28,028 nucleotides of DNA. Source: Escherichia coli (lineage in GTDB: Bacteria; Pseudomonadota; Gammaproteobacteria; Enterobacterales; Enterobacteriaceae). This document shows positions 6,623-10,319 of the stretch, in pieces; positions within the stretch are counted from its first letter, which is position 1; every line of letters starts with the position of its first letter. The position numbers and the translations under genes are program-made. Where the stretch lies: assembly GCF_003334335.1 (NCBI RefSeq), contig NZ_QOWQ01000050.1. The stretch is one strand, 5' to 3'. Below the pieces are notes generated by a model. It had not been told where the DNA came from and did no database searches. It worked only from the letters and a program-made list of their open reading frames with translations.

Positions 6623-6646
6623 CGGATGCTATCAGGGAATAAAAAA

Positions 6647-7456
6647 ATGATTCATTACAGGGAGAATATATATTCTCTTGATAATTATGAGCGTTACATA
6701 ACTGACAGTTCGCTATTTGAGAATACTGGCGATGGCATAATATATACAGGTATTGTGCCCCTTATTACAGTTGTTGAGCCTGTTGTATCTAATCAACATA
6801 GTGTGCTGATTATACCTGGAGGTGGATACAGGAGGATTGTTTATGAAAGAGAGGGACTTGATGTTGGCAGATGGATAGCAGGTCAGGGATATACGGCATT
6901 TATTCTTTCTTACAGAATGCCCTCCGTTAATGGTTATTATTCCTTTGCAGATGCGAAGAATGCCCTGAACTTTATTTCTTACTGGGCCGGAATGTCGGAG
7001 AGAACATTTAAGAGTGTTGGGTGTATGGGGTTTTCGGCAGGTGGTCATCTTGCTGGATATATTACTCATCTCCATTATGAGGAAGAGACTTCTGTGCGTC
7101 CTGACTGGATGGCTCTGATATATCCAGTTATATCTCTTGACAGGAGTATTGCTCATCAGGGATGCCGGAAACGTCTTCTGGATGCAGGTGAAAGTGAATA
7201 TTCAGCCAGTCTTGAAAATAGTGTTACAGAGTATATGCCACCAGTCTTTATTGTGCATGCAACAGATGATAAGGATGTTCCAGTTATTCATTCTCTGAGA
7301 TATTTTAACTCTATTCGGGATAAGGGACATCATGCAGAAGCTCATTTTTTTGATAAGGGGGGTCATGGATTTGGTGTATCCGGAAAAAATGGATATCCGA
7401 TAGAAAAATGGCAAAGCCTGCTTCTGGAATGGCTTGCGGAACATAAGTTTCATTGA
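6647..7456 (+). CDS. alpha/beta-hydrolase fold esterase (fold-3 / acetyl-esterase-like); putative sugar O-acetyl esterase (est1)
   Basis: ORF in frame from 6626; preferred start is the ATG at 6647 with RBS aggga. Oxyanion-hole motif IIPGGGY, nucleophile elbow GFSAGGH, C-terminal DD..VP and GGHGF motifs. No obvious signal peptide. Starts a few nt after the nanT stop, so likely co-transcribed. Confidence 0.7.
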   Translation: MIHYRENIYSLDNYERYITDSSLFENTGDGIIYTGIVPLITVVEPVVSNQHSVLIIPGGGYRRIVYEREGLDVGRWIAGQGYTAFILSYRMPSVNGYYSFADAKNALNFISYWAGMSERTFKSVGCMGFSAGGHLAGYITHLHYEEETSVRPDWMALIYPVISLDRSIAHQGCRKRLLDAGESEYSASLENSVTEYMPPVFIVHATDDKDVPVIHSLRYFNSIRDKGHHAEAHFFDKGGHGFGVSGKNGYPIEKWQSLLLEWLAEHKFH

Positions 7457-7501
7457 GAAATCAAATTACAAGTGATAAATATATTTAATGATGAGGCATT
7501 T

Positions 7502-8212
7502 ATGAAAAAATATTATCCACTATTAACTGTAATTCTTCTTGGTTTACCTTTGTGCTCTCAGGCATTAACTCTTAATCTACGTGGGGGATACAGAAGCGCC
7601 AGTCAGGCTTATGAAACGTTGATTCAGGTTAGTCAGGGGTGGAATAATGGTTGGTGGGCAAGTTTTGAGTCAAACACCTGGAATACAATTCACAACAATG
7701 AAAATGAATTGTTTGCACTCAATTATAATAAAATAGATATAAATAAAACATATAAAATAGATGACAAATGGGCTCTAATCCCAGGGATTCAGACACAATG
7801 GATGTCAGCAGGAAGTCAGTATAACCCTTATCTGAAAATTTCGTATCAGGCAACGCCAGATCTTAATCTGGCCTTACGCTATCGCTATGACTGGAAAGCT
7901 TTCCGACAGACGGATTTAGATGGCAACAGGGCGCGTAATGATCAGCATCAGTTTGATGGTTATGTGACATACAAAATTAATGATTCATGGTTGTTTGCAT
8001 GGCAGACCACGGTATATACGAAGGTTAATAATTTCAAATATGGGAATCATAAAAAAACAGCAACTGAAAATGCATTTGTTCTGCAATATAAAATGTCACC
8101 GGTGTTCACCCCATATATAGAATATGATTACCTGGATAAACAAGGGGTGTATAAGGGGAAAGATAATAAACATGAAAATAGTTACCGTGTCGGTGTTCTG
8201 ATTAATTTTTAA
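7502..8212 (+). CDS. nanC: KdgM-family outer-membrane channel, NanC-like (N-acetylneuraminate porin)
   Basis: ORF in frame from 7472; likely start MKKYYPLL at 7502 with a signal peptide. Strong colinear match to E. coli NanC as recalled: RGGYRS.S.AYET...VS.GW.NGWWAS.ESNTWNTIH, RYRYDWKA.RQ.DL, DGYVTY.IN, FAWQTT.Y.K, ANHKK.ATENAFVLQY.M.P..TPYIEYDYLD.QGVY.G.DN..ENSYR.GV. Confidence 0.8.
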   Translation: MKKYYPLLTVILLGLPLCSQALTLNLRGGYRSASQAYETLIQVSQGWNNGWWASFESNTWNTIHNNENELFALNYNKIDINKTYKIDDKWALIPGIQTQWMSAGSQYNPYLKISYQATPDLNLALRYRYDWKAFRQTDLDGNRARNDQHQFDGYVTYKINDSWLFAWQTTVYTKVNNFKYGNHKKTATENAFVLQYKMSPVFTPYIEYDYLDKQGVYKGKDNKHENSYRVGVLINF

Positions 8213-8224
8213 AAGGTGATTACA

Positions 8225-9334
8225 ATGAAAGTGAAAAACTTTATATATCTTCCCTTCTGCTTGTTTATTGGAACGTCGGTAGCCGGAGCTTTACCGGAAA
8301 TTCCTGAACCATTTAAATATGGTGTAGGAGGGATCGAGAATGGTAAAATATATATAGGACTGGGAAGTCTGGGAAATAACTGGTATATGATAGATACAAA
8401 CCAGAGTGAAAAAAAATGGACTAAGATAGCACAATGGCCGACAGTTCCCAGAGAGCAGGCAACAGCTACTATTATTGATGGTAAGATCTATGTATTTGGA
8501 GGAATTGGAAAAGATAAAAGTGGAGTCATAACCTTACAAAAAGATGTCTATTCCTATGATATTGCTAAAGATAAATGGGAAAAATTGATGACCCGTCCCC
8601 CTGTATCTCTTGCCGGTCATGTTTCTTTTATCCATAATGGTCATGCGGTATCTACTGGTGGTGTAAATGAGAATATTTTTAATGGATACTTTTCAGATGT
8701 CGAGTTATCAAAAGGGAATTCCGCGCTGACAGAGAAAGTCAACAGGGATTATTTTAGTAAACCTGCTGATGATTATTTTTTAAATAATCATATAATTTCT
8801 TATGACCCGTCAAAAAACCAGTGGAAGAACCTGGGAACGACTCCATTTCCGGGAACTGCTGGTTCATCGGTGATTTTTGCAGAACAGCAAATTTATATAC
8901 TGGGAGGGGAGAGAAAACCGGGGCTTCGTTCTGTTAGATCCTGGACGGGGGAGCTTTCGCATGATCGAATTAAATGGTCTGAACTTCCACCAGTAGCTTC
9001 ACCCGAGGGGGTGTCAGGAGCATATGCCTCTGTTATTGATGGAAATATCTTTCTGGCCGGTGGTGCATATTTCCCGGGGGCGGCAGAAAAGTATAGCAAT
9101 GGTGAATACTGGTCTCATAAAGGACTGGATAAAGCCTATTCAAAAGAGATATATCAGCTAATAAAAAATGACTGGAAAAAAGTTGGTTCTTTGCCGGAAG
9201 GACTTGCTTATGGTGTAAGCCTGCCCTGGCAGGGGGGGATGCTCATTCTGGGTGGGGAGAAAAAAGATGGTAAAGCTGTTTCAGATGTTATTTATCTGAA
9301 AAAAAATGACAAACAAATAAAGATTGTTAAATAA
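8225..9334 (+). CDS. nanM: N-acetylneuraminate mutarotase/epimerase, NanM-like (Kelch-repeat beta-propeller)
   Basis: ORF open from a GTG at 8216; ATG at 8225 follows an aaaagg RBS. Signal peptide, then motifs matching E. coli NanM (YjhT) as recalled: IYIGLGS.G..WY..DT......KW, YVFGGIGK, NENIFNGYF, PGLR, YGVSLPW......I.GGE...GKAV.D. Confidence 0.85.
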   Translation: MKVKNFIYLPFCLFIGTSVAGALPEIPEPFKYGVGGIENGKIYIGLGSLGNNWYMIDTNQSEKKWTKIAQWPTVPREQATATIIDGKIYVFGGIGKDKSGVITLQKDVYSYDIAKDKWEKLMTRPPVSLAGHVSFIHNGHAVSTGGVNENIFNGYFSDVELSKGNSALTEKVNRDYFSKPADDYFLNNHIISYDPSKNQWKNLGTTPFPGTAGSSVIFAEQQIYILGGERKPGLRSVRSWTGELSHDRIKWSELPPVASPEGVSGAYASVIDGNIFLAGGAYFPGAAEKYSNGEYWSHKGLDKAYSKEIYQLIKNDWKKVGSLPEGLAYGVSLPWQGGMLILGGEKKDGKAVSDVIYLKKNDKQIKIVK

Positions 9335-9342
9335 CTGTAATG

Positions 9343-9380
9343 CAGGTGACTGTATTAGTTGTTCAGTCACCTGAGTTATT
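9343..9380 (+). terminator. Rho-independent terminator-like hairpin after the nanM-like gene
   Basis: Perfect 10-bp inverted repeat caggtgactg (9343-9352) / cagtcacctg (9364-9373) with 11-nt loop, followed by a T-rich tract (agttatttta). Confidence 0.55.
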
Positions 9381-9395
9381 TTAATGGGGTTTATA

Positions 9396-10319
9396 ATGAA
9401 TAAAGATAAATCTTTAAATGAAATGATGTTAAGCTTGTTTAATAAATCAACTATTGTTGACTTGTCAAGTGAGACAATATCTGAGAGTAAATCTCTTTCA
9501 GGCCGTATTTATCAGGATCCTGAACATAACGGGGAATTTGAACTTGATCGTGTATTGACAGATATTTATGCTCCTCAGTTAATTATTTTTTTACCAGATA
9601 AACCAAATGGAACAGGAATATTGATTATTCCCGGGGGGGGCTACCAGGCTGTTATGTTAGATAAGGAAGGTACAGCTCTTGCTCCAGAGTTTTTATCTCA
9701 GGGCTATACATTATTTGTTCTTAGTTACAGATTACCATCGCCAGCTGAGGAAGAAAATATAAACAAAACTTTTATTGATGCAATATCTGCAATGCTTTAT
9801 ATTCGTAAGAATGCTGATAAATGGCATCTACAGCGTCATCGTATTGGTGTATTAGGATTTTCTGCTGGGGGGCATATCGCCTCAACGTTTGTGAATCAGA
9901 TTTGTGATTTCAAACGTTCTTCTGACAGTAAAGAACAAGAGATTTTCGCTATTCCCGATTTTGTCGGGTTAATTTATCCTGTAATATCAATGAAAGATGA
10001 TGTGACACATCCAGGCTCCAGGAAGCAATTACTGGGGGATAATAGTACCTCAGAAAATATAATACAATATAGTGCGGATCTTAATGTCACATCATGTTTT
10101 CCTCCTGTGTTTTTACTCCATTGTTGTGATGATGATCTTGTGTCAATTGAAAACAGTCTGCTCATGTACCGTGGCCTAATAGAGAAAGGCGTTTCTGCTG
10201 AAATGCATCTCTATGAGAAAGGAGGGCATGGTTTTAGTATTCAGTGGGCCACAGATCTTCCTGTTGGAGGATGGATAAAACTGTTTATGGACTGGATGTA
10301 TTCTCATGGATTTAAATAA
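9396..10319 (+). CDS. alpha/beta-hydrolase fold esterase, paralogue of est1 (est2)
   Basis: ORF in frame from 9384; ATG at 9396 has GGGG 5 nt upstream. Shares with est1 the motifs IIPGGGY, VLSYRLPS (est1 ILSYRMPS), GFSAGGH, PPVFLLHCCDDDLV (est1 PPVFIVHATDDKDV), KGGHGF. No signal peptide. Confidence 0.7.
   Translation: MNKDKSLNEMMLSLFNKSTIVDLSSETISESKSLSGRIYQDPEHNGEFELDRVLTDIYAPQLIIFLPDKPNGTGILIIPGGGYQAVMLDKEGTALAPEFLSQGYTLFVLSYRLPSPAEEENINKTFIDAISAMLYIRKNADKWHLQRHRIGVLGFSAGGHIASTFVNQICDFKRSSDSKEQEIFAIPDFVGLIYPVISMKDDVTHPGSRKQLLGDNSTSENIIQYSADLNVTSCFPPVFLLHCCDDDLVSIENSLLMYRGLIEKGVSAEMHLYEKGGHGFSIQWATDLPVGGWIKLFMDWMYSHGFK

What the first reader, a model, noticed from the sequence alone, without database searches (positions are those of the whole stretch)
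6626..10319. Two paralogous cytoplasmic alpha/beta-hydrolase esterases embedded in the nan-like operon
est1 and est2 share the motif series IIPGGGY (oxyanion hole), GFSAGGH (nucleophile elbow), PPVF..H..DD..V and KGGHGF (acid/His region) but are otherwise diverged. Neither has a recognisable signal peptide, unlike the adjacent NanC-like and NanM-like proteins, so they would act after import. That implies the NanT-like permease may carry esterified substrates. Their fold is unrelated to the SGNH esterase NanS, so they are candidates for a distinct regio-specificity or a different acyl group.
Basis: inference. Interest (0 to 1): 0.7.

Follow-up and report, generated by a model that had tools for sequence, protein, structure and literature searches.

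The report
Two esterases in E. coli nan-9
The two genes are real, intact paralogous serine esterases inside the published, human-associated "nan-9" sialic-acid gene cluster of pathogenic E. coli; they probably strip acyl groups off modified sialic acids inside the cell, but that published idea is still untested.

Summary
est1 (6626-7456, 276 aa) and est2 (9384-10319, 311 aa) are paralogs (37% identity, E 9e-52). Both carry all four quoted motifs and lack signal peptides, while the porin and NanM between them have them. AlphaFold models (pLDDT 89 and 92.5) match carbohydrate acetylesterases of the BD-FAE/PaeX/AxeA1 type. Ser, Asp and His are invariant across 73 homologs.

The locus is not new. 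It is the nine-gene nan-9 cluster of ExPEC (Tiwari et al. 2023, PMC10088187), which already proposed these "axeA1-like" genes as novel sialyl esterases. No biochemical follow-up was found.

New here:
- The esterase pair is a sister duplication specific to this module.
- The module is conserved in four anciently diverged versions: the ExPEC island, the Proteus chromosome, E. coli IncF plasmids and Citrobacter.
- Both genes are under purifying selection.
- All versions share a CRP-like site and a NanR-like operator upstream of nanA.
- The cluster also encodes a NanS homolog that, like K-12 NanS, has no signal peptide.

Most likely role: cytoplasmic de-O-acylation of imported modified sialic acids, complementing NanS. 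Substrate and regiospecificity remain inferred.

The parts
3175..3190 (+). CRP-like site (TTTGATAATCTTCACA) upstream of nanA
   Evidence: The TCACAT half-site is invariant and the whole site is recognisable in the aligned nanA upstream regions of all four diverged module versions. Binding was not tested.
3228..3243 (+). Candidate NanR-type operator TGGTGTACTAGGTATC (GGTGTA-CTA-GGTATC)
   Evidence: A 15-nt block is invariant in four module versions whose synonymous sites are saturated. It is the only exact copy in the window. It resembles the (GGTATA)n NanR operator named in the abstract of PMC8012715. Binding was not tested.
3275..4192 (+). nanA, N-acetylneuraminate lyase
   Evidence: NCBIfam NF003164 scores 449.5 bits against a cut-off of 281. 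RefSeq WP_001149832.
4226..5101 (+). nanK, N-acetylmannosamine kinase (ROK)
   Evidence: NCBIfam NF003461 scores 420 bits against a cut-off of 283.
5150..6622 (+). nanT-like sialate:H+ MFS symporter (RefSeq start; the ORF is open from 5114)
   Evidence: NCBIfam NF003024 scores 829 bits against a cut-off of 604. It is 90% identical across module versions, dN/dS about 0.03-0.04.
6626..7456 (+). est1, 276-aa predicted cytoplasmic alpha/beta-hydrolase carbohydrate esterase (Ser137, Asp214/215, His247)
   Evidence: It starts 3 nt after the nanT stop. Pfam hits are Peptidase_S9, BD-FAE and Abhydrolase_3. AF2 pLDDT is 89. Foldseek top hits are 7dwc and 6a6o. No signal peptide by heuristic.
7502..8212 (+). 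NanC-like KdgM-family outer-membrane porin, with signal peptide
   Evidence: 61% identical to K-12 NanC. Signal-peptide heuristic.
8225..9334 (+). nanM, periplasmic N-acetylneuraminate mutarotase, with signal peptide
   Evidence: NCBIfam NF010730 scores 499.5 bits against a cut-off of 416. Signal-peptide heuristic.
9337..9379 (+). Stable hairpin followed by a U-rich tail, between nanM and est2 (possible partial terminator or attenuator)
   Evidence: RNA fold gives -20 kcal/mol, z = -5.9, with 0 of 200 shuffles folding as well. Proteus has a terminator-like hairpin at the same junction.
9384..10319 (+). est2, 311-aa predicted cytoplasmic alpha/beta-hydrolase carbohydrate esterase (Ser160, Asp249/250, His282)
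   Evidence: Pfam BD-FAE hit at 2e-20 over nearly the full model. AF2 pLDDT 92.5, pTM 0.92. Foldseek top hits are 6a6o and 7dwc. No signal peptide by heuristic.
10355..11089 (-). nanR, GntR/FCD-family sialic-acid regulator, divergent from nanS
   Evidence: NCBIfam NF003011 scores 273 bits against a cut-off of 260.
11189..12175 (+). nanS homolog, SGNH/SASA sialate O-acetylesterase, no signal peptide
   Evidence: 56% identical to K-12 NanS over 316 aa, E 5e-139. Its orthologs in the other modules carry Pfam SASA. RefSeq names it 'sialate O-acetylesterase'.

Best explanation
est1 and est2 are two active, cytoplasmic Ser-Asp-His carbohydrate O-acyl esterases of the BD-FAE/PaeX/AxeA1 branch of the alpha/beta-hydrolase superfamily. 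They arose by one duplication inside an accessory sialic-acid catabolic module, the published nan-9 cluster. They are expressed with nanA-nanK-nanT-porin-nanM from a promoter that carries a CRP-like site and a NanR-like operator.

The most likely mechanism is as follows. Modified sialic acids cross the outer membrane through the NanC-like porin. NanM mutarotates them in the periplasm. The NanT-like symporter imports them. In the cytoplasm est1, est2 and the co-encoded NanS homolog remove O-acetyl (or other O-acyl) groups. This yields Neu5Ac or Neu5Gc, which NanA can cleave. The three esterases probably differ in position or acyl preference.

Shown here: gene integrity, paralogy, fold, conserved catalytic residues, absence of signal peptides, conserved linkage to nan genes, purifying selection, and a conserved promoter motif. 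Inferred: esterase activity, sialic-acid substrates, cytoplasmic site of action, import of esterified substrates, and division of labour.
For: Fold and catalytic residues:
- AF2 models are confident (pLDDT 92.5 and 89.0).
- Top structural matches are carbohydrate acetylesterases 6a6o and 7dwc (E 1e-20 to 1e-24, target-normalised TM up to 0.83). Sequence matches to the same entries reach E 1e-35 and 1e-32.
- Ser160, Asp250 and His282 (est2 numbering) are invariant in 73 homologs, and their est1 equivalents in 60. The BD-FAE crystal structure has a Ser-Asp-His triad (PMC8165983).

Linkage to nan genes:
- The est1 + est2 + nanS + nanA/T/porin/M/R set is conserved in four versions that differ by 10-54% in protein sequence: the ExPEC island, the Proteus vulgaris/faecis chromosome, E. 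coli IncF plasmids and Citrobacter farmeri. This holds even where the gene order is circularly permuted.
- In the NJ tree the est1 and est2 clades are sisters. The next relatives (43-46% identity) are not nan-linked.

Selection: synonymous sites are saturated for every gene, yet dN/dS is 0.13-0.29 for the esterases.

Expression:
- The nanT-est1 gap is 3 nt.
- The CRP-like site and 15-nt operator-like box are conserved upstream of nanA in all versions.
- NanR-box-like repeats lie directly upstream of est2 where it is the first gene.

Localisation: no signal peptide in any of 8 esterase orthologs, against clear ones in the porin and NanM.

Functional data from the literature: deleting the whole nan-9 cluster delays growth on Neu5Ac and impairs growth on Neu5Gc. 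The authors proposed these genes as novel sialyl esterases (PMC10088187).

Prevalence: 689 of 5426 complete E. coli genomes carry at least 80% of the est1-to-est2 span, nearly all at 99% identity or more. Both genes are annotated intact in every sampled full-length row.
Against: - No enzymatic or single-gene genetic data exist for est1 or est2.
- The closest characterised relatives act on acetylated pectin or xylan oligomers, not sialic acids (structural matches).
- A review argues that NanT cannot take up Neu5,9Ac2 (PMC10017367), and Vimr's model places NanS in the periplasm (PMC3658417). This contradicts cytoplasmic de-esterification, although another paper calls NanS intracellular (PMC5512079).
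- The esterases are among the least constrained genes of the module, together with nanK and nanM.
- A strong hairpin separates est2 from the upstream genes.
- Triad geometry could not be measured, because model coordinates are not exposed to scripts.
Confidence: 0.55

Rival explanations
1. est1 and est2 remove sialic-acid modifications other than O-acetyl groups. Candidates are 9-O-lactyl esters, C1 methyl esters, intramolecular lactones, or N-acyl groups. NanS would handle the O-acetyl esters.
For: - A dedicated SGNH O-acetylesterase homolog is already present in the cluster, which leaves room for different chemistry.
- est1 carries fixed substitutions at otherwise family-invariant positions (Ser to Cys180, Asn to His222) and an RR pair directly after the GGGY motif.
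- BD-FAE itself hydrolyses feruloyl as well as acetyl esters (PMC8165983).
- Vimr's review notes unidentified esterases for methyl and lactyl sialates.
- The nan-9 deletion affects growth on Neu5Gc more than on Neu5Ac.
Against: - All characterised close relatives are acetylesterases.
- The methyl-ester activity that Vimr discusses for E. coli (strain not stated in the passages read) would have to come from elsewhere in strains without nan-9, such as the K-12 reference genome, which the scan for the est1-est2 span did not pick up.
- No sequence feature found here points specifically to an amidase or lactonase.
Confidence: 0.15
2. The esterases act on non-sialic substrates, such as acetylated uronate or xylo-oligosaccharides. 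They would be a relic or hitch-hiker of a kdgM-paeX-type porin-esterase unit that was fused to nan genes.
For: - The best NCBIfam models are PaeX and AxeA1.
- est1 sits next to a KdgM-family porin. In Dickeya, kdgM and paeX form an operon (from my own knowledge of Shevchik & Hugouvieux-Cotte-Pattat 2003; not checked here).
- The Vibrio tritonius homolog lies in a kdgR/kduD/GH88 uronate cluster.
- More distant homologs lie beside fucosidase, GH43, SusC/D and sulfatase genes.
Against: - Scores are far below the PaeX and AxeA1 cut-offs: 168 and 260 bits against 550, and 136 and 157 bits against 700.
- No uronate or xylan catabolic gene occurs in any of the four module versions.
- The pair has been retained under purifying selection with nan genes while synonymous sites saturated.
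- The porin is 61% identical to NanC.
Confidence: 0.12
3. The esterases work before uptake, in the periplasm or outside the cell. They would reach it by a non-classical route and de-esterify sialic acids or sialosides that enter through the NanC-like porin, so that NanT imports only unmodified Neu5Ac. This parallels the periplasmic role of PaeX.
For: - Vimr's model places sialate de-esterification in the periplasm.
- A review infers that NanT does not recognise Neu5,9Ac2.
- PaeX is periplasmic (from my own knowledge; not checked here).
Against: - No Sec-type leader and no twin-arginine (Tat) motif occur in any of 8 orthologs. A lipobox was not searched for separately.
- The N-terminal extension of est2 is predicted as an ordered helix and strands (pLDDT about 95 for residues 11-40), not a cleavable peptide.
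- The true periplasmic and outer-membrane proteins of the same operon have classical signal peptides.
Confidence: 0.1
4. The two genes are redundant, generic short-chain esterases with no specific role in the pathway, drifting toward loss.
For: They are among the fastest-evolving proteins of the module, at 46-58% identity between versions against 90% for NanT. The nan-9 deletion phenotype on unmodified sialic acids is mild.
Against: - Both are intact in four anciently separated module versions, with invariant catalytic residues and dN/dS well below 1.
- Both are intact in all sampled rows among 689 complete E. coli genomes.
- The apparent truncated database entry that was checked comes from an error-rich assembly.
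Confidence: 0.05

Closest known systems
nan-9 cluster of ExPEC, including its two 'axeA1-like' genes (Tiwari et al., BMC Biol 2023, PMC10088187)
   Same: It is the same locus, with the same nine genes in the same order: nanA, nanK, nanT, esterase, nanC-like, nanM, esterase, nanR, nanS. It is 99-100% identical in ST131/ST73/ST69-type genomes. The paper makes the same proposal, that the two esterases are novel sialyl esterases with alternative deacetylation specificity.
   Different: Nothing differs in the sequence. Not mentioned in the passages of the paper read here:
- The esterases belong to the BD-FAE/PaeX family, with predicted structures.
- They are a sister duplication specific to the module.
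- Orthologous modules exist in Proteus, on IncF plasmids and in Citrobacter.
- A promoter motif is conserved across versions.
- Neither the esterases nor NanS have a signal peptide.
PaeX pectin acetylesterase (Dickeya) and AxeA1 acetylxylan esterase (Prevotella); BD-FAE Pfam family PF20434
   Same: They share the alpha/beta-hydrolase fold, the GxSxG elbow and the invariant Asp and His. These are the best NCBIfam and Pfam matches. The family is typically embedded in sugar-catabolic loci, which appear to set the substrate. PaeX is also encoded next to a KdgM-family porin (from my own knowledge).
   Different: - Scores are far below the equivalog cut-offs.
- est1 and est2 form a separate clade.
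- They have no signal peptide, whereas PaeX has one (from my own knowledge).
- Their genomic partners are sialic-acid genes, not pectin or xylan genes.
C. lactoaceticus acetyl ester-xyloside hydrolase (PDB 6a6o) and B. thetaiotaomicron BTAxe1 (PDB 7dwc)
   Same: These are the closest solved structures: 24-32% identity in the structural alignments, target-normalised TM 0.77-0.83, and sequence E-values down to 1e-35.
   Different: They belong to plant-xylan-degrading organisms. est2 has an extra ordered N-terminal segment of about 55 residues.
NanS (YjhS), the E. coli SGNH sialate 9-O-acetylesterase
   Same: The proposed job is the same, de-O-acetylating sialic acid so that NanA can use it. The operon logic is the same, and neither protein has a signal peptide.
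   Different: The fold is unrelated (SGNH/SASA against alpha/beta-hydrolase). NanS is biochemically proven (literature cited), while est1 and est2 are not.
Alpha/beta-hydrolase sialate esterases of Gram-positive bacteria (pneumococcal EstA, and CE7 'Axe' genes in streptococcal nan loci)
   Same: They set a precedent: non-SGNH alpha/beta-hydrolase esterases can serve sialic-acid catabolism. Vimr's review reports that streptococcal nanS/axe homologs encode functional Neu5,9Ac2 esterases (unpublished data cited). The EstA and CE7 details are from my own knowledge.
   Different: The families are different. No hit to PF05448 (AXE1) or PF00756 (Esterase) appears among the Pfam matches listed up to E = 10.

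Membership tests
BD-FAE / PaeX-AxeA1-type alpha/beta-hydrolase carbohydrate esterases (Pfam PF20434) | Alpha/beta-hydrolase fold resembling solved family members | tested here: met
   AF2 pLDDT is 92.5 and 89.0. Foldseek top hits are 6a6o, 7dwc and 3hxk, and also 6xyc/6tkx, the 'carbohydrate esterase from gut microbiota' entries.
BD-FAE / PaeX-AxeA1-type alpha/beta-hydrolase carbohydrate esterases (Pfam PF20434) | Significant match to the PF20434 profile | tested here: met
   est2 matches at 2e-20 over model positions 3-213 of 215. 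est1 matches at 8e-7 over positions 15-106 only, so the match is weaker and partial.
BD-FAE / PaeX-AxeA1-type alpha/beta-hydrolase carbohydrate esterases (Pfam PF20434) | Ser (GxSxG), Asp and His catalytic residues conserved | tested here: met
   S160, D250 and H282 (est2) and S137, D214/D215 and H247 (est1) are invariant columns. Their three-dimensional geometry was not measured.
BD-FAE / PaeX-AxeA1-type alpha/beta-hydrolase carbohydrate esterases (Pfam PF20434) | Hydrolysis of acetyl or feruloyl esters on carbohydrates | not testable with these tools
   This needs an enzyme assay.
PaeX equivalog (NCBIfam NF041902) | Whole-protein score at or above the curated cut-off of 550 bits | tested here: not met
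   est1 scores 167.7 bits and est2 259.9 bits. They are relatives, not orthologs.
PaeX equivalog (NCBIfam NF041902) | N-terminal signal peptide and periplasmic location (from my own knowledge of the PaeX paper) | tested here: not met
   No hydrophobic leader occurs in any of 8 orthologs.
AxeA1 acetylxylan esterase equivalog (NCBIfam NF042968) | Whole-protein score at or above the curated cut-off of 700 bits | tested here: not met
   est1 scores 135.8 bits and est2 157.2 bits, aligned to roughly half of a 459-position model.
NanS / SASA sialate O-acetylesterases (SGNH, Pfam PF03629) | SGNH/SASA domain | tested here: not met
   No PF03629 hit is listed for est1 or est2. The separate gene at 11189-12175 does qualify: it is 56% identical to K-12 NanS, and its orthologs carry SASA.
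Hormone-sensitive-lipase family (Abhydrolase_3) | HGGG oxyanion motif, and scores reaching the HSL subfamily cut-offs | tested here: not met
   The motif is PGGG(Y), not HGGG. HSL-type NCBIfam models score 19-28 bits against cut-offs of 320-410. Only a partial, weak Abhydrolase_3 match is seen.
nan-9 accessory sialic-acid cluster (Tiwari et al. 2023) | Nine contiguous genes (nanA, nanK, nanT, esterase, nanC, nanM, esterase, nanR, nanS), distinct from the core sialoregulon and flanked by IS elements in ExPEC | tested here: met
   Gene content and order come, and the description in the paper. The window is up to 100% identical to ExPEC chromosomes. An IS66 element lies upstream. nanE is absent.
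Sialic-acid-regulated (NanR/CRP) operon | NanR operator and CRP site at the promoter; induction by Neu5Ac | tested here: inconclusive
   A conserved GGTGTA-CTA-GGTATC box and a CRP-like site are present upstream of nanA in all four versions. The canonical (GGTATA)3 repeat is absent. Binding and induction were not tested.

The most novel reading that the evidence does not exclude
est1, est2 and the co-encoded NanS are three cytoplasmic esterases with distinct, complementary specificities. One possibility is 9-O versus 7/8-O versus 4-O-acetyl; another is acetyl versus lactyl. Together they would fully de-esterify the oligo-O-acetylated sialic acids that I recall (own knowledge) as typical of human colonic mucin. 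The very highly conserved NanT of this module would import these esterified forms. That would make est1 and est2 the first BD-FAE-family sialate esterases. It would also give a mechanistic reason why nan-9 is the strongest human-host-associated locus in E. coli.
Probability: 0.3. Interest if true: 0.65.

Novelty: already known. Interest (0 to 1): 0.35.

Why it matters
[quoted passage not shown] About 13% of complete E. coli genomes carry it.

If the two esterases open access to O-acylated sialic acids that other E. coli cannot use, they would explain a colonisation advantage. They would also add a new enzyme family to sialic-acid biology, and could supply regiospecific reagents for analysing sialic-acid O-acetylation.

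The question is directly testable: the reference strain ATCC 25922 carries the cluster. As it stands, the finding restates a published, still unverified hypothesis.

Tried and rejected
- **Canonical NanR operator.** I searched for the (GGTATA)3 operator. There is none near nanA; only scattered single hexamers occur. A diverged but conserved box was found instead.
- **Literature follow-up.** Searches by protein accession, 'nan-9' and 'axeA1' returned only the 2023 paper and one review that cites it. Steenbergen 2009 and Rangel 2016 on NanS are not held. The disagreement over where NanS is located could therefore be judged only from sequence and from secondary sources.
- **Scan of 100,044 species genomes with the module's NanT.** Only Proteus faecis (90%) and a 100%-identical contig labelled as a Bacillota MAG were found, plus two irrelevant 25% hits. 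The patterns used are strict, so this is not a full distribution test.
- **PHROGs.** Only a generic 'esterase' family matched.
- **Possible common pseudogene.** I considered that truncated est1 and est2 database clusters (P0002, P0122, P0123) might mark one. The only one checked, P0123, comes from an assembly in which every gene is fragmented.
- **Lipase, peptidase or HSL membership.** Considered and rejected; see the membership table.
- **UPEC transcriptome and proteome papers.** They gave nothing on the esterases. One proteomics table lists a 'NanA2' in UPEC 536, which may or may not be this cluster.
- **Searches for the 6a6o and BTAxe1 papers.** They found nothing usable.

Full report
**What is there.** The window is an ExPEC pathogenicity-island segment.
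- An IS66 element lies at 198-2613.
- A low-GC block (about 39.5% GC, against 51-56% in the flanks) spans roughly 3000-12200.
- It is followed by shiF (an MFS transporter gene that RefSeq does not name), iucABCD, iutA and an Iha-like TonB-dependent receptor.

The low-GC block encodes nanA (3275-4192), nanK (4226-5101), a NanT-type MFS symporter (5150-6622), est1 (6626-7456), a NanC/KdgM-family porin (7502-8212), nanM (8225-9334) and est2 (9384-10319). A divergent nanR (10355-11089, minus strand) and a nanS homolog (11189-12175) complete it. There is no nanE.

**Checking the observation.** est1 (276 aa) and est2 (311 aa) are 37% identical over 249 residues, E 9e-52. Every quoted motif is present in both at the positions given in the parts list.

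Neither protein has a hydrophobic N-terminus, and the ORF starts listed are the most upstream possible. The porin and NanM have classical leaders. The same pattern holds in three further orthologous gene sets. One caveat is that signal peptides were judged by a hydrophobicity and charge heuristic, not by a trained predictor.

**What the proteins are.**
- Pfam places both in the alpha/beta-hydrolase clan. BD-FAE (PF20434) is the best full-length match for est2 (2e-20) and a partial match for est1.
- The best NCBIfam models are the PaeX pectin acetylesterase and the AxeA1 acetylxylan esterase, but scores are far below the curated cut-offs (168 and 260 bits against 550).
- The closest solved structures by sequence are 6a6o, 7dwc and 3hxk.
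- AlphaFold models are confident (pLDDT 92.5 and 89.0).
- Foldseek returns the same carbohydrate esterases first: the C. lactoaceticus acetyl ester-xyloside hydrolase and B. thetaiotaomicron BTAxe1, at E 1e-20 to 1e-24.
- In alignments of 73 and 60 homologs the Ser of GFSAGGH, the Asp of the DD motif and the His of GGHGF are invariant. This matches the Ser-Asp-His triad described for the BD-FAE crystal structure (PMC8165983).

**It is a published locus.** The region is 99-100% identical to chromosomes of many ExPEC strains. In all, 689 of 5426 complete E. coli genomes carry at least 80% of the est1-est2 span, 687 of the 691 matching genomes at 99% identity or more. Both genes are annotated intact in every sampled full-length row, including ATCC 25922.

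Tiwari et al. 2023 (PMC10088187) named exactly these nine genes nan-9.
- Deleting the whole cluster delays growth on Neu5Ac and impairs growth on Neu5Gc.
- nan-9 cannot replace nanRATEK, probably because it lacks nanE.

I found no later paper that tests this. It remains unverified.

**New evidence that the pair belongs to sialic-acid catabolism.** The same gene set occurs in three further versions:
- The chromosome of Proteus vulgaris/faecis, in the same order but without nanK, between metalloprotease genes and a two-partner secretion locus.
- E. coli IncF plasmids from mouse, pig and human.
- A Citrobacter farmeri/E. coli version.

In the plasmid and Citrobacter versions the order is est2-nanR-nanS-nanA-nanK-nanT-est1-porin-nanM. 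This is a circular permutation of the window's order that keeps every gene.

Protein identities between the window and the other versions are as follows:

| Protein | Identity to other versions |
|---|---|
| NanT | 90% |
| porin | 78-85% |
| NanR | 71-79% |
| NanA | 70% |
| NanS | 62-66% |
| NanM | 55-58% |
| NanK | 54-58% |
| est2 | 53-58% |
| est1 | 46-47% |

Synonymous sites are saturated for all genes alike (pS 0.62-0.80), so the versions are uniformly old. dN/dS is 0.13-0.29 for the esterases and 0.03-0.04 for nanT. The esterases are thus under purifying selection, but they are among the least constrained members, together with nanK and nanM.

A neighbour-joining tree puts the est1 and est2 clades as sisters, implying one duplication before the versions diverged. 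The next relatives, at 43-46% identity, are stand-alone genes next to gapC- and cybB-like genes in Kluyvera-type genomes. More distant homologs lie in other sugar-catabolic loci:
- a kdgR/kduD/GH88 uronate locus in Vibrio tritonius;
- a locus with a fucosidase;
- a GH43/SusCD/sulfatase locus.

This fits the published view that substrate in this family follows genomic context.

**Regulation.** nanT and est1 are 3 nt apart.

Upstream of nanA, all four versions share a CRP-like site (window 3175-3190). They also share an invariant 15-nt block, TGGTGTACTAGGTAT (within the 16-nt box TGGTGTACTAGGTATC at window 3228-3243). Its GGTGTA-CTA-GGTATC layout resembles the GGTATA-repeat NanR operator (operator as named in the abstract of PMC8012715). 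The canonical triple repeat is absent.

Where est2 is the first gene (the plasmid and Citrobacter versions), it is directly preceded by similar repeats. In the window a strong hairpin (-20 kcal/mol, z = -5.9) with a U-rich tail separates nanM from est2. Proteus has a terminator-like hairpin at the same junction. est2 may therefore be expressed at a different level from est1. All of this is sequence evidence only.

**Where they act.** The inference is reasonable, but it is not specific to est1 and est2. The nan-9 NanS, all its orthologs and K-12 NanS itself also start directly with the SGNH block and have no leader.

The literature disagrees on this point:
- Vimr's model puts NanS in the periplasm.
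- A 2023 review takes the requirement for NanS as evidence that NanT cannot recognise Neu5,9Ac2.
- Robinson et al. call NanS intracellular.

On sequence grounds the cluster encodes three cytoplasmic esterases. The question of what NanT carries remains open.

**Most likely mechanism.** Modified sialic acids enter through the porin, are mutarotated by NanM, and are imported by NanT. est1, est2 and NanS then de-O-acylate them to Neu5Ac or Neu5Gc for NanA.

Three esterases suggest a division of labour by position or acyl group. est1 and est2 differ at fixed positions close in sequence to catalytic elements:
- RR versus QA directly after GGGY.
- Cys180 in est1 where the family has an invariant Ser.
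- His222 in est1 where the family has a near-invariant Asn.

I put 0.55 on sialate de-O-acylation in the cytoplasm. My confidence is much higher, about 0.9, that both are active serine carbohydrate esterases.

The rivals are other sialate modifications (0.15), non-sialic plant-type substrates inherited from a kdgM-paeX-like unit (0.12), action before uptake (0.10) and functionless redundancy (0.05).

**Novelty and score.** The genes, the cluster and the hypothesis are already in the literature, so I rate the finding 'already known'. What remains open, and is directly testable, is the biochemistry. It carries moderate interest because of the link between nan-9, the human host and pandemic ExPEC lineages.

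Noticed in passing
window 11189-12175; L012:5618-6595 (K-12 nanS): The cluster has its own NanS homolog, 56% identical to K-12 NanS. Neither it, its orthologs in three other module versions, nor K-12 NanS has an N-terminal signal peptide. Reviews nevertheless draw NanS in the periplasm, while another paper calls it intracellular.
   Followed up: partly
window 5150-6622 compared with L002, L003, L010, L017: The NanT-like symporter is 90% identical across module versions in which the neighbouring esterases are only 46-58% identical. Synonymous sites are equally saturated, so this reflects unusually strong purifying selection (dN/dS 0.03-0.04), not recent transfer. The reason is unknown.
   Followed up: partly
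L003-L005, L021 (E. coli IncF plasmids); L010/L011 (Citrobacter farmeri / E. coli): A diverged copy of the whole module sits between finO/traX and repA on conjugative IncF plasmids from mouse, pig and human E. coli. Its gene order is a circular permutation of the chromosomal one. About 19 E. coli plasmids in PLSDB carry it.
   Followed up: partly
L013-L015, L017 (Proteus vulgaris/faecis chromosome); L002: The same module, without nanK, lies in the Proteus chromosome between zapA-like metalloprotease genes and a ShlB/TPS locus, with no mobile-element genes called in the 10-kb flanks. The related metagenome copy (L002) has 33% GC. A Morganellaceae origin of the E. coli island is plausible.
   Followed up: partly
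window 3175-3190 and 3228-3243: A CRP-like site and an invariant 15-nt block (TGGTGTACTAGGTAT, within the 16-nt box TGGTGTACTAGGTATC) upstream of nanA are conserved across all four module versions. This is a candidate operator for the module's own NanR and is distinct from the canonical (GGTATA)3.
   Followed up: partly
window 9337-9379: A strong hairpin (-20 kcal/mol, z = -5.9) with a U-rich tail lies between nanM and est2. Proteus has a terminator-like hairpin at the same junction.
   Followed up: partly
window 1-2613 and 12333-27164: Island context: an IS66 element lies upstream. Downstream are a shiF-like MFS gene (minus strand), iucABCD, iutA (19332-21611), a low-GC stretch at 22000-25000 with unassigned short ORFs, and a 696-aa TonB-dependent receptor (25074-27164, NF010012 at 1618 bits, Iha-like).
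   Followed up: partly
L016 (JAEYCB010000044.1): A contig labelled 'MAG: Bacillota bacterium' encodes a NanT 100% identical to the window's. It is probably a mis-binned E. coli contig.
   Followed up: no
L024 (ENA ERZ11448941 contig_723); proteins P0002, P0122, P0123: The protein database holds truncated est1 and est2 clusters with many members. The only one examined, P0123, comes from an assembly in which every nan gene is fragmented, so it is an assembly artefact rather than a pseudogene lineage.
   Followed up: yes
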